Shown: positions 36,091 through 56,886 of the stretch, piece by piece
Layout: each line of letters opens with the position of its first letter
Position numbering within the stretch: the first letter of the stretch is position 1
Assembly: GCA_018396415.1 (NCBI GenBank)
Contig: JAGTRE010000002.1
Coordinates: 96,824 to 160,823, forward strand
Origin: Candidatus Bathyarchaeota archaeon
GTDB taxonomy: Archaea > Thermoproteota > Bathyarchaeia > RBG-16-48-13 > JAGTRE01
Length of the DNA stretch: 64,000 bases
Direction of reading: 5' to 3'
Notes under the pieces: generated by a model
What the model was told of the DNA's origin: nothing
What the model saw: the letters and a program-made list of their open reading frames with translations, nothing else
Database searches by the model: none
Made by a program: the position numbers and the translations under genes

Positions 36091-36235
36091 TGGCGGGCCC
36101 GGCGGGAATTGAACCCGCGACCCATCCCCAGGGAGAGGTGAATCATCATCCCTTCCGGGTGTCCTCCGAGCTCGGATAAAAGCCTCACCGAGAGATTTTC
36201 TCCCCGGTGCTCTATCCTAGCTGAGCTACGGGCCC
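36091..36235 (-). tRNA. Intron-containing tRNA (about 70-nt intervening sequence); anticodon not resolved
   Basis: Minus-strand RNA: GGGCCCG-TA-GCTC-AGCTAGGATA-GAGC ... GCGGG-TTCAATT-CCCGC-CGGGCCC-G-CCA. Acceptor, D-arm and T-arm are canonical and CCA is encoded. The anticodon region is interrupted by about 70 nt containing hairpins; exon junctions could not be fixed by eye. Confidence 0.6.
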
Positions 36236-40242: not shown

Positions 40243-40779
40243 GTGTTAACGTTGGCTCTACAAATCGAGGCGATTTATGTTGAAGGAAAACTAATCGTTT
40301 CCTCATCGGAAGCAGTTTCATCTCTAGAGCAAAGAGGCTATGGCACAAAGGAAGAAAAAACGGGTTTAATTCTTTCACCCACTGAAGCCCTCTACTTACT
40401 TGGTGACAAGAAACTCCGTGTAGTTGACAAAGATAGTGGCATTGAACAAGATTTTCCAACGCTCCTTGGAAAAATACGTACAATTGATCCTGAAATTTGG
40501 ATAAGATATCTGATTTACAGAGATCTTAGAGATCGAGGTTACGTTGTCCGCGAAGGCTTTGGTCTCGGAGTTGACTTCCGAGTATACGAACGGGGGCAAT
40601 ACGGGGAAGAAGCAGCCAAATACATTGTATTTGGGATTTCAGAAGGGACTCCAATTCCTGTTGGGAAAATTGTTGAACTCCTAAGATACGTCCAAAGTTT
40701 GAAACGTGAACTCGTACTCGCAGTTATCGACCGACGGGGAGAGATTGTGTATTACTCTGTCTCACAATTGACATTCTAG
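40243..40779 (+). CDS. endA: tRNA-splicing endonuclease EndA (short, about 178-aa form)
   Basis: Catalytic-domain block RDLRDRGYVVREGFGLGVDFRVYERG with conserved Tyr/His/Lys context. Confidence 0.85.
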   Translation: MLTLALQIEAIYVEGKLIVSSSEAVSSLEQRGYGTKEEKTGLILSPTEALYLLGDKKLRVVDKDSGIEQDFPTLLGKIRTIDPEIWIRYLIYRDLRDRGYVVREGFGLGVDFRVYERGQYGEEAAKYIVFGISEGTPIPVGKIVELLRYVQSLKRELVLAVIDRRGEIVYYSVSQLTF

Positions 40780-42189: not shown

Positions 42190-42299
42190 TGGCGGGCCTG
42201 ACGGGATTTGAACCCGCGACCTACAGCTTTCCCCAGAGGCTATAGGAGGCTCGGCTGATCTGGTCATCTGCCGCGCTGTCCAAACTGCGCCACAGGCCC
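42190..42299 (-). tRNA. Intron-containing tRNA (about 32-34 nt extra); anticodon not resolved, intron probably non-canonical
   Basis: Minus-strand RNA GGGCCTG-TG-GCGC-AGTTTGGACA-GCGC-G-...-AGGTC-GCGGG-TTCAAAT-CCCGT-CAGGCCC-G-CCA. Intervening region contains hairpin GGCAGAT-GACCAG-ATCAGCC; no U33-containing loop is found at a canonical position. Confidence 0.55.
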
Positions 42300-42630
42300 C
42301 AGTTTAATCGATAACTTAGATATTCCTTAAACTTTCTGTTTGACAAACTTATAGTTGAATAAACTTGGCACGTCTATAGGCTCATTAGCCCGTTTTAGCC
42401 GACCTTTCGAACTTAGACTCTGTAATTGCCTCCTCCTGCCAACGCGAACGCCACATTTTCAAATTCAGCTGTTCACATACCCTTCCGCCATGAGCTCCCA
42501 GAATCGTATCATTCATTAACAGATATTGTCATAAATGCACTGAGCAATAGTAAACCTTCGATAAGGCATTGGATATTAAGGTCCATTAAGTAAAGACTTA
42601 AGTTTAACAAAAAAATTCGATAAACTAAGG

Positions 42631-42764
42631 CGGGGGTACCCGAGCCAGGTCTATGTCGCGGTCCAGAAGCCGGACGGCTTGAGGGGGCGGTAGCTAGACA
42701 CTGCCCAAACTTAAGATCCGCTGGCGAAGGCCTTCGTGGGTTCGAATCCCACCCCCCGCACCAC
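42631..42764 (+). tRNA. tRNA-Leu (anticodon TAA) with a 47-nt intron inside the 5' strand of the anticodon stem (near position 30/31, non-canonical)
   Basis: GCGGGGG...CCCCCGC-A-CCA acceptor; T-arm GTGGG-TTCGAAT-CCCAC; long variable arm. Exon 1 ends ...GTCGCGG (42662); exon 2 resumes A-CTTAAGA-TCCGC (42710 onward), giving stem GCGGA/TCCGC and loop CTTAAGA. Intron TCCAGAAGCC...TGCCCAA spans 42663-42709. Confidence 0.8.
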
Positions 42765-45291: not shown

Positions 45292-45339
45292 CACAGCAAA
45301 AGCATTCGCAAGAAAAAGTTTCCGTACCTATTGAATGGA

Positions 45340-45482
45340 GGCCGCGGTCGGGATTTGAACCCGAGCGACCGTCCCATTCCTTTAATCAATTAATGGAATG
45401 GGTGTCCGGCTCCATTGACCAGGATAGAGGCTACGCATTAATCCTTCAGGCCGGTAGGCTAACCAGACTACCTCACCGCGGC
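45340..45482 (-). tRNA. tRNA with two introns (about 32 nt in the anticodon loop, about 36 nt hairpin in the variable region); anticodon reads GAA (Phe-like) but discriminator is C
   Basis: Minus-strand RNA GCCGCGG-TG-AGGT-AGTCTGGTTAG-CCTA-CCGGC-CTGAAG[32 nt]A-GCCGG-[CCCATTCC-ATTAATTGATTAAA-GGAATGGG hairpin]-TCGGG-TTCAAAT-CCCGA-CCGCGGC-C; 143 nt. Confidence 0.5.
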
Positions 45483-45584
45483 CAACTTTTGCCATCCTTA
45501 CAACCATCACTTTTTCATTAAGTTTTCTTTAAAGGTTGTTGGACAACTAACCTTAGGGAATTTGGAAGATTGAAGTATGAGCCC

Positions 45585-56744: not shown

Positions 56745-56886
56745 AGCGGGGTGGGGTAGCAAGAGAGGACAATGAAGTCCCTCTTGCCGAACCAGGTTTA
56801 ATGAGTACTTGTAGTGAACAAGCCTCGAATTCCCCGCAGGGCTCATAACCCTGAGATCGGTGGTTCAAATCCACCCCCCGCTACCA
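56745..56886 (+). tRNA. Initiator tRNA-Met (anticodon CAT) with about 62 nt of intervening sequence inside the D-loop (non-canonical)
   Basis: A1-U72 (AGCGGGG.../...CCCCGCT-A-CCA); anticodon arm CAGGG-CTCATAA-CCCTG with three G-C pairs (initiator hallmark); T-arm GGTGG-TTCAAAT-CCACC. D-stem GGGG/CCCC encloses TAGC + about 62 extra nt with hairpins AAGAGAGGA/TCCCTCTT and CTTG-TAGTGAA-CAAG. Confidence 0.7.

What the first reader, a model, noticed from the sequence alone, without database searches (positions are those of the whole stretch)
42631..42764. tRNA-Leu(TAA) whose intron splits the 5' strand of the anticodon stem
The reading GCGG | 47-nt insert | A-CTTAAGA-TCCGC reconstitutes a perfect Leu anticodon arm only if the intron lies at about 30/31 rather than 37/38. 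Such positions are known mainly from Thermoproteales-like and a few other TACK archaea and need a relaxed-specificity splicing endonuclease. This is a clean, checkable example in the window.
Basis: seen in the sequence. Interest (0 to 1): 0.6.

Follow-up and report, generated by a model that had tools for sequence, protein, structure and literature searches.

The report
Two-intron archaeal tRNA-Leu(UAA) gene
This is a real leucine tRNA gene of an uncultured hot-spring archaeon, interrupted by two short protein-spliced introns (one in the D-loop, one in the anticodon stem) rather than one long intron; this kind of gene is already well known in related archaea.

Summary
There is a genuine tRNA-Leu(UAA) gene at window 42630-42760, with CCA encoded at 42761-42763.

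The proposed single 47-nt intron is wrong. The gene has two introns:
- Intron 1: 28 nt, 42654-42681, between D-loop positions 21 and 22.
- Intron 2: 18 nt, 42691-42708, between positions 30 and 31.
- A 9-nt micro-exon, AGGGGGCGG, lies between them.

Only the two-intron product closes the D-stem, folds into a class-II cloverleaf and matches 69 intron-less orthologues. All 88 exon bases are identical in syntenic relatives, while both introns and the flanks have diverged.

Both introns have the 4-bp helix and 3-nt bulge geometry cut by the archaeal splicing endonuclease, but in relaxed form. An endonuclease homologue with no histidine, so presumably a non-catalytic subunit, lies 1.9 kb away. That fits a heteromeric, broad-specificity enzyme.

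Both intron positions recur in many archaeal lineages and are in the literature. A multi-intron tRNA-Leu(UAA) is already reported for Caldiarchaeum subterraneum. This is an ordinary new member of a known kind. Splicing itself is inferred, not observed.

The parts
42588..42629 (+). Conserved A/T-rich upstream block (AAGTAAAGACTTAAGTTTAACAAAAAAATTCGATAAACTAAG); putative archaeal promoter (BRE/TATA region). Its function is inferred.
   Evidence: Identical over 42 nt in L124 and nearly so in L127 and L142, whereas sequence further upstream diverges (about 66% identity over 150 nt). No promoter assay or archaeal promoter model was run.
42630..42653 (+). Exon 1 (24 nt): acceptor 5' strand GCGGGGG, U8 A9, D-stem 5' strand CCC, G13, and the D-loop up to A21.
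   Evidence: 24/24 identical in L124 and L127. Aligns to the intron-less orthologues L125 and L148.
42654..42681 (+). Intron 1 (28 nt, TGTCGCGGTCCAGAAGCCGGACGGCTTG), between Sprinzl positions 21 and 22 (D-loop/D-stem border). Relaxed HBh'-type motif.
   Evidence: It is the unique best solution of the unbiased deletion search. Central helix 42648-51 GGUC / 42676-79 GGCU has 4/4 pairs. The 5' bulge is UAU. Inner helix is 42655-57 / 42673-75 plus 42659-61 / 42670-72. There is no outer helix. The local MFE reproduces H, the bulge and h'. One compensatory pair, C-G to U-A. Identity to relatives is 22/28 and 23/29. Absent from L125, L148 and L119.
42682..42690 (+). Exon 2 (9-nt micro-exon, AGGGGGCGG): A22, D-stem 3' strand GGG (23-25), G26, and anticodon-stem positions 27-30 (GCGG).
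   Evidence: Invariant in all seven aligned sequences, including the intron-less ones. 9/9 identical in relatives.
42691..42708 (+). Intron 2 (18 nt, TAGCTAGACACTGCCCAA), between positions 30 and 31 in the 5' strand of the anticodon stem.
   Evidence: Can be drawn as hBHBh'. Outer helix is 42682-84 / 42710-12. Central helix 42685-88 GGGC / 42703-06 GCCC has 4/4 pairs. Bulges are GGU (42689-91) and AAA (42707-09). Inner helix is 42692-93 / 42701-02. One compensatory pair, A-U to G-C, and one G-C to G-U change. Identity to relatives is 12/18. Caveat: a conformer with the 5' bulge paired is 4-7 kcal/mol more stable.
42709..42760 (+). Exon 3 (52 nt): A31, anticodon loop CUUAAGA (anticodon UAA at 42712-42714), anticodon-stem 3' strand UCCGC, 14-nt variable arm, T-arm GUGGG-UUCGAAU-CCCAC, acceptor 3' strand CCCCCGC, and discriminator A73.
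   Evidence: Read from the sequence. ARAGORN cloverleaf of the spliced product. Identical in L124 and L127.
42761..42763 (+). Genomically encoded 3' CCA.
   Evidence: Read from the sequence. Also present in L124, L127, L142 and L147.
40243..40779 (+). tRNA-splicing endonuclease (EndA) homologue, 178 aa, with no histidine. Inferred to be the non-catalytic structural subunit of a heteromeric endonuclease.
   Evidence: Pfam tRNA_int_endo 86.6 bits and tRNA_int_endo_N 42.7 bits. TIGR00324 87.8 bits. M. jannaschii catalytic His125 aligns to Ala and Lys156 to Arg. There are no histidines in this protein or in its orthologues in L124 and L142. No second EndA-like ORF in the window.

Best explanation
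Window 42630-42763 (+) encodes a precursor of tRNA-Leu(UAA) made of three exons (24, 9 and 52 nt, plus an encoded CCA) and two short protein-spliced introns.

- **Intron 1** (28 nt, 42654-42681) interrupts the D-arm between positions 21 and 22.
- **Intron 2** (18 nt, 42691-42708) interrupts the 5' strand of the anticodon stem between positions 30 and 31.

In the precursor, each exon-intron boundary pair can form the motif recognised by the archaeal tRNA-splicing endonuclease. This is a 4-bp helix with a 3-nt bulge on each strand, cut two nucleotides 3' of each helix strand.
- For intron 1 the motif is relaxed (HBh'): the central helix, 5' bulge and inner hairpin are present, but there is no outer helix.
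- For intron 2 the full hBHBh' can be drawn, but its inner helix has only 2 bp and the 5' bulge can alternatively pair.

The two motifs sit side by side, sharing only A42682, so they can form together and no obligatory splicing order is needed.

After cleavage and ligation (RtcB-type ligase, inferred from the general pathway), the 85-nt body plus CCA folds into a normal class-II tRNA-Leu.

Shown: the gene, the exon and intron boundaries by comparative evidence, and the potential of the motifs to pair. Inferred: actual cleavage, ligation and expression, and that the enzyme is an (alpha-beta)2-type endonuclease with broad specificity.
For: 1. The unbiased search over all one- and two-segment deletions gives one best solution. 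It has introns after mature nt 24 (28 nt) and nt 33 (18 nt), scoring 66.7 against 34.9 for the best single intron.
2. A profile of 69 intron-less tRNA-Leu(UAA) genes scores the two-intron product at 80.9 bits.
3. The product is called tRNA-Leu(taa) with a CCC/GGG D-stem and G13-A22. It folds by MFE into the class-II cloverleaf; the rival single-intron products do not.
4. In syntenic relatives (neighbouring proteins 79-95% identical), all 88 exon positions are identical. Intron 1 is 79% identical, intron 2 is 67%, and the flanks 47-67%.
5. The intron-less genes L125 and L148, and the one-intron Vulcanisaeta gene L119, align with gaps exactly at the proposed introns.
6. All 19 proposed motif pairs are standard pairs in every sequence, with two compensatory changes. 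Slid controls give 20-50% paired.
7. The same insertion sites recur in other lineages, and together in L115.
8. An EndA homologue lies 1.9 kb away.
9. The splice geometry used matches the description in PMC4090602.
Against: - There is no RNA-level evidence, so splicing and expression are inferred.
- The full-length precursor MFE (-61.5 kcal/mol) is a different fold. The fold constrained to contain both motifs is -47.0 kcal/mol.
- For intron 2, a continuous 7-bp helix that buries the 5' splice site is 4-7 kcal/mol more stable than the bulged conformer, in the window and in L124, L127 and L119.
- Intron 1 has no outer helix (h = 0), so it is not a strict BHB.
- Covariation support is thin: four to five informative sequences, two compensatory pairs, and 21 of 500 shuffles reach the observed value.
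- The catalytic endonuclease subunit was not seen; the nearby homologue lacks the catalytic histidine.
Confidence: 0.9

Rival explanations
1. One reading: a single 47-nt intron (true coordinates 42662-42708) at position 30/31, with 42654-42661 (TGTCGCGG) forming part of the mature D-arm and anticodon stem.
For: The string GCGG + 47 nt + ACTTAAGATCCGC exists.
Against: - The D-stem has only about 2 pairs, and the product folds as a rod without a D-arm.
- The 5' splice site has 2 of 4 central-helix pairs.
- Profile score is 72.2 against 80.9 bits. The minimum edit distance of its 5' half to the intron-less 5' halves is 6, against 3 for the two-intron model. The best single-intron score is 34.9 against 66.7.
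- Its 'exon' segment varies among close relatives without compensation, while its 'intron' contains the invariant block AGGGGGCGG, which is exonic in intron-less orthologues.
Confidence: 0.02
2. Two introns, but with a different register for the D-loop intron. For example, 42653-42682 (30 nt; H5 AGGU / H3 GCUU, h = 2, h' = 4) would give a D-loop lacking A21 and A22. Alternatively, 42653-42680 would give UCUGAGGG.
For: The exhaustive BHB scan ranks the 30-nt register slightly higher on helix counts (h + h' = 6 against 3). Its product still folds as a cloverleaf.
Against: - It scores 71.3 bits (76.2 for the 42653-42680 variant) against 80.9.
- It removes the near-universal A21 and the G13-A22 pair that the intron-less genes have.
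- Under the 42653-42680 register, position 21 of the mature D-loop would differ among close relatives (G, U or A). The preferred register gives an identical mature sequence in all of them.
Confidence: 0.05
3. A decaying or non-functional tRNA gene whose inserts are not removed (a pseudogene).
For: The gene is missed by the default tRNA finders. The precursor MFE does not display the motifs. There are no expression data.
Against: - Exons are 88/88 identical across relatives whose introns and flanks have diverged. This is the signature of purifying selection on the spliced product.
- An upstream block and the encoded CCA are conserved.
- The motif pairs are maintained through compensatory changes.
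- No other tRNA-Leu(UAA) gene is present in the window.
Confidence: 0.03

Closest known systems
Multi-intron tRNA genes of Thermoproteales and other Crenarchaeota (Sugahara et al. 2007 and 2008; reviewed in PMC4090602 and PMC4033280)
   Same: Up to three short BHB-type introns per tRNA at non-canonical positions; 30/31, 20/21 and 22/23 are listed explicitly. Relaxed hBH and HBh' motifs occur. They are associated with (alpha-beta)2 endonucleases. Closely spaced introns are noted by tRNAscan-SE 2 (PMC8450103).
   Different: The window does not come from a named Thermoproteales genome; it matches an uncultured MAG (GCA_038870555.1) that I could not place taxonomically. The D-loop site here falls at 21/22 in my numbering. 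That position is not in the review's explicit list, which ends in 'etc.'.
Multi-intron tRNA-Leu(UAA) of Candidatus Caldiarchaeum subterraneum (Aigarchaeota) (PMC3082918, PMC3293823)
   Same: Same isoacceptor, reported to carry multiple introns at non-canonical positions with BHB motifs, in a genome with a heterotetrameric endonuclease.
   Different: The papers held here do not give the intron positions or sequence, so orthology of the introns could not be checked.
tRNA-Leu(UAA) of the MAG 'Thaumarchaeota archaeon S016_59_esom' (locus L115) and metagenome contigs L124, L127, L142 and L147
   Same: The same two insertion sites (21/22 and 30/31) and the same 9-nt middle exon AGGGGGCGG. L124 and L142 are syntenic with the window.
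   Different: L115's introns differ in sequence and length (22 and 19 nt), and both have an outer helix, giving strict motifs. The window's intron 1 has none.
30/31 intron of Vulcanisaeta sp. AZ3 tRNA-Leu(UAA) (locus L119)
   Same: Same position, same flanking exon sequence (GGGGGCGG | A-CTTAAGATCCGC), same central helix GGGC/GCCC, and same bulges GGU and AAA.
   Different: It has a single 15-nt intron and no D-loop intron.

Membership tests
Archaeal class-II tRNA-Leu(UAA) | 7-bp acceptor stem, 5-bp anticodon stem with a 7-nt loop carrying UAA, 5-bp T-stem with a UUCGAAU loop, and discriminator A73 | tested here: met
   GCGGGGG/CCCCCGC, GCGGA-CUUAAGA-UCCGC, GUGGG-UUCGAAU-CCCAC and A42760. ARAGORN calls the spliced product tRNA-Leu(taa).
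Archaeal class-II tRNA-Leu(UAA) | Closed D-arm (pairs 10-12 with 23-25, G13-A22, G18 G19, A21) as in intron-less orthologues | tested here: met
   Met only by the two-intron product (CCC/GGG, G13-A22). Not met by the single-intron product.
Archaeal class-II tRNA-Leu(UAA) | Long variable arm | tested here: met
   The 14-nt UGGCGAAGGCCUUC forms a GGC/GCC stem in the MFE of the spliced product.
Archaeal class-II tRNA-Leu(UAA) | Overall similarity to bona fide genes of the family | tested here: met
   80.9 bits, E = 1.2e-26, over the full length against a profile of 69 intron-less genes.
Archaeal endonuclease-spliced (BHB) tRNA intron | 4-bp central helix flanked by two 3-nt bulges, with both splice sites 2 nt 3' of the helix strands | tested here: met
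   Both introns have 4/4 central pairs in the register that yields the correct mature tRNA. The geometry is as described in PMC4090602.
Archaeal endonuclease-spliced (BHB) tRNA intron | Strict hBHBh' (outer and inner helices both present and the motif thermodynamically favoured) | tested here: not met
   Intron 1 has no outer helix (h = 0). For intron 2, h = 3 and h' = 2, but the bulged conformer is 4-7 kcal/mol less stable than a continuous helix. Both are therefore relaxed motifs (intron 1 HBh'-like, intron 2 hBH-like).
Archaeal endonuclease-spliced (BHB) tRNA intron | Motif helices maintained in evolution | tested here: met
   100% of 90 cells are paired, with 2 compensatory pairs. Slid controls give 20-50%. 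The support is thin because few sequences are informative.
Archaeal endonuclease-spliced (BHB) tRNA intron | Intron actually excised and exons ligated in vivo | not testable with these tools
   No RNA data are available.
(alpha-beta)2 heterotetrameric EndA with broad specificity | A non-catalytic structural subunit distinct from the catalytic one | tested here: met
   The EndA homologue at 40243-40779 contains no histidine. The residue aligned to catalytic His125 of M. jannaschii is Ala, and Lys156 aligns to Arg. The same holds in two orthologues.
(alpha-beta)2 heterotetrameric EndA with broad specificity | Catalytic alpha subunit carrying the Crenarchaea-specific loop (L1) with a conserved lysine (PMC5829648) | not testable with these tools

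The most novel reading that the evidence does not exclude
The second intron may have arisen by duplication or transposition of the first within the same gene. In the close relatives L124 and L127, the 30/31 intron shares the core CCAGA(A/T)GCCG with the D-loop intron. The same CCAGAA hairpin also occurs in the D-loop introns of Bathyarchaeia and Nitrososphaeria tRNA-Leu(UAA). In this lineage, the conserved ability of the 5' bulge of intron 2 to pair might impose an order or control on splicing. This would extend the 'intron transposition' model, described for Thermoproteales, to another archaeal lineage with a traceable donor-acceptor pair.
Probability: 0.15. Interest if true: 0.4.

Novelty: new member of a known kind. 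Interest (0 to 1): 0.2.

Why it matters
Its main value is for annotation. Default tRNA finders miss this gene altogether (default ARAGORN, and the Rfam tRNA model even at a permissive threshold). ARAGORN with its intron option finds it but returns a wrong single-intron structure. A genome annotated that way would appear to lack, or would mis-annotate, the decoder for UUA codons.

The locus is a clean worked example of two relaxed splice motifs separated by a 9-nt exon, with intron-less, one-intron and two-intron orthologues available for comparison. Together with at least two or three other multi-insert tRNA genes in the same 64 kb and a non-catalytic EndA paralogue next door, it shows that Thermoproteales-style tRNA gene disruption also occurs in this uncultured hot-spring lineage. 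It does not change any concept.

Tried and rejected
- **Default tRNA finders.** Default ARAGORN and Rfam at gathering threshold do not see the gene. Rfam at E <= 10 on the locus gives only spurious T-arm-like hits.
- **Precursor MFE.** The whole-precursor MFE does not show the motifs (z = -2.06), so thermodynamic folding alone cannot decide the structure.
- **Alternative register for intron 1.** Rejected on profile score and on conservation of the mature sequence.
- **'5' bulge can pair' as a general feature of 30/31 introns.** Rejected. It holds in 5 of 12 genes, while L115 and L003 fold as textbook motifs.
- **Organism placement.** No paper mentions the assembly accession, and the titled loci share only 30-44% protein identity with the window.
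- **Literature not held.** Sugahara 2007 and 2008 are not in the library, so I could not check whether 21/22 in Leu(UAA) is tabulated there.
- **First PSSM search.** Forcing a 34-nt 5' half produced artefactual two-intron solutions for the Bathyarchaeia. This was corrected by requiring a 4-bp central helix.

Full report
**1. Observation.**
The region reads GCGGGGGTACCCGAGCCAGGTCTA-TGTCGCGGTCCAGAAGCCGGACGGCTTG-AGGGGGCGG-TAGCTAGACACTGCCCAA-ACTTAAGATCCGCTGGCGAAGGCCTTCGTGGGTTCGAATCCCACCCCCCGCA-CCA, spanning 42630-42763. Default ARAGORN and the Rfam tRNA model at gathering threshold do not report a gene here, although they find five other tRNAs in the window. Even at E <= 10, Rfam gives no tRNA match on this locus.

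**2. Why one 47-nt intron is wrong.**
- The spliced product then has a D-arm with only about two pairs.
- It folds as a rod rather than a cloverleaf.
- The proposed 5' splice site has only 2 of the 4 central-helix pairs that a bulge-helix-bulge motif needs.

A second GCGG lies at 42687-42690, preceded by GGG, which can pair with the CCC of the D-stem.

I collected 120 archaeal tRNA-Leu(UAA) loci with a pattern built only from the 3' exon. Sixty-nine of them are intron-less and have a 33-34-nt 5' half with a paired D-stem, for example GCGGGGGTGCCCGAGCCTGGTCAAAGGGGGCGGA.

An unbiased search over all one- and two-segment deletions of the window's 80-nt 5' part was scored with a matrix from those genes plus stem pairing. 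It gives a single best answer: remove 42654-42681 (28 nt) and 42691-42708 (18 nt). That solution scores 66.7, against 34.9 for the best single deletion.

A profile HMM of the intron-less genes scores the two-intron product at 80.9 bits. Alternative registers for the first intron score 71.3 and 76.2. The two-intron product, GCGGGGGUACCCGAGCCAGGUCUAAGGGGGCGGACUUAAGAUCCGC..., folds by MFE into a class-II cloverleaf with D-arm, anticodon arm, variable arm and T-arm.

**3. Comparative proof of the exon boundaries.**
A metagenome scan found close relatives.
- L124 and L142 are syntenic with the window. Their HisRS, EndA-like, IF-2B-family, HycI and radical-SAM genes are 79-95% identical at the protein level.
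- In L124 and L127, all 88 exon positions (24 + 9 + 55, counting CCA) are identical to the window.
- Intron 1 is 22/28 and 23/29 identical, and intron 2 is 12/18.
- The 150-nt flanks are 47-67% identical, apart from a conserved 42-nt block immediately upstream.
- The intron-less genes L125 and L148, and the one-intron Vulcanisaeta gene L119, align with gaps exactly at the two inserts.

**4. Splice motifs.**
I used the geometry described in PMC4090602: a central 4-bp helix flanked by 3-nt bulges that carry the splice sites.

*Intron 2*
- Outer helix A42682-G84 with C42710-U12.
- Central helix GGGC (42685-88) with GCCC (42703-06).
- Bulges GGU and AAA.
- A 2-bp inner helix.

*Intron 1*
- Central helix GGUC (42648-51) with GGCU (42676-79).
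- 5' bulge UAU.
- A 3 + 3-bp inner hairpin.
- No outer helix, so this is a relaxed HBh'-type motif.

On the alignment of relatives, all 19 pairs are standard pairs in every sequence. There is one compensatory change in each inner helix and one G-C to G-U change. Slid controls give 20-50% paired. Only four or five sequences are informative, and 21 of 500 shuffles reach the observed values.

Caveats:
- The whole-precursor MFE (-61.5 kcal/mol) is a different fold, and forcing both motifs costs 14.5 kcal/mol.
- For intron 2, a continuous 7-bp helix that pairs the 5' bulge is 4-7 kcal/mol more stable than the bulged form, in the window and in L124, L127 and L119.
- This is not a general property of 30/31 introns: L115 and L003 fold as textbook motifs.

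Both introns are therefore best described as relaxed substrates. The two motifs abut, sharing only A42682, and can coexist, so no splicing order is required.

**5. The enzyme.**
A 178-aa EndA homologue lies at 40243-40779, about 1.9 kb upstream.
- It matches Pfam tRNA_int_endo and tRNA_int_endo_N and TIGR00324.
- Its best solved relatives are the M. kandleri and M. jannaschii enzymes.
- It contains no histidine at all, and neither do its orthologues in L124 and L142.
- The catalytic His125 of the M. jannaschii enzyme aligns to Ala, and Lys156 to Arg.

The Tyr-His-Lys triad is conserved in catalytic subunits (PMC5829648). I therefore infer that this is a structural subunit of a heteromeric enzyme. 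[quoted passage not shown] The catalytic subunit and its specificity loop are not in the window, so that part remains inference.

**6. Comparison with what is known.**
- Non-canonical positions, including 30/31, 20/21 and 22/23, and genes with up to three introns, are established for Crenarchaeota and especially Thermoproteales (PMC4090602 and PMC4033280).
- tRNAscan-SE 2 explicitly handles closely spaced multiple introns and has separate intron models for Crenarchaeota/Euryarchaeota and for Thaumarchaeota (PMC8450103).
- Caldiarchaeum subterraneum is reported to have a multi-intron tRNA-Leu(UAA) and a heterotetrameric endonuclease (PMC3082918 and PMC3293823).

In my own survey of tRNA-Leu(UAA) (titles):

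| Position | Found in |
|---|---|
| 30/31 | Vulcanisaeta; other Thermoproteota; a Korarchaeote-like MAG; a Micrarchaeota MAG; a Bathyarchaeota MAG |
| 21/22 | Thermoprotei/Thermoproteales, Nitrososphaeria, Brockarchaeota and Nanohaloarchaeota MAGs |
| 22/23 | About 22 Bathyarchaeia |
| 21/22 and 30/31 together | The 'Thaumarchaeota' MAG L115; the window and its close relatives |

This is therefore a new member of a well-known kind.

**7. Organism.**
The window matches MAG assembly GCA_038870555.1, contig JAWCOX010000006.1. I could not place it taxonomically. The window is 43% G+C while the tRNA exons are about 67% G+C.

**8. Verdict.**
Interest is low (0.2): it is a useful annotation correction and a tidy example, not a surprise.

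Noticed in passing
window 40243-40779 (+): The tRNA-splicing endonuclease homologue next to the tRNA genes has no histidine at all, as in its orthologues in L124 and L142. It therefore cannot have the Tyr-His-Lys triad. By sequence it is closer to alpha/alpha4-type enzymes (M. jannaschii 90 bits) than to crenarchaeal beta subunits (25 bits). It looks like a degenerate, non-catalytic paralogue.
   Followed up: partly
window 56745-56886 (+): An initiator-type tRNA-Met(CAU) gene (AGCGGGGTGGGGTAGC ... CCCCGCTACCA) with at least two inserts in its D-arm. Rfam matched only model positions 7-64 at 56811-56876, just above threshold, and ARAGORN -i mis-called it tRNA-Lys. Exact intron boundaries were not worked out.
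   Followed up: partly
window 36094-36235 (-): A 142-nt tRNA gene with a 43-nt insertion around the anticodon loop and a 32-nt insertion in the variable region. A CTTTTAT loop appears to be flanked by inserts on both sides. The variable-region insert contains ATGATGA, which resembles a C box. It is probably a three-intron tRNA. ARAGORN -i calls it Arg(cct), which looks unreliable.
   Followed up: no
window 42193-42299 (-): Another tRNA gene, 330 nt upstream of tRNA-Leu and divergently oriented. It has 41 nt where the anticodon loop should be, including ACCAGATCAGCC. Its isotype is unresolved.
   Followed up: no
L124:5627-5760 and L127:413-547 (orthologues of window 42630-42763): In these relatives the two introns of the same gene share the core CCAGAAGCCG: 10/10 in L124 (shuffle p about 0.0009) and 9/10 in L127 (p about 0.012). 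In the window itself the similarity is gone. A similar GGCCAGAAAGCC hairpin occurs in the D-loop introns of Bathyarchaeia tRNA-Leu(UAA). This suggests intron duplication or transposition, or a shared hairpin preference.
   Followed up: partly
L123, L128-L130, L132-L140, L144-L146 (metagenome contigs): A different group of tRNA-Leu(UAA) genes has identical exons but a single intron of about 27 nt, one or two positions further 3' (GGGGGCGGA-CACCTCAGG...GGCCGC-ACTTAAGA). Intron position around the anticodon stem evidently shifts between lineages.
   Followed up: no
window 45336-45483 (-): ARAGORN with introns reports a tRNA-Phe(gaa) with a 69-nt intron here. Rfam does not support it, and it was not examined; it may be a false positive.
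   Followed up: no
L022 (genome contigs, RFKI01000085.1): A contig binned as 'Bdellovibrio sp.' carries an exact match to the archaeal tRNA-Leu(UAA) 3'-exon pattern. This is probably a mis-binned archaeal contig.
   Followed up: no
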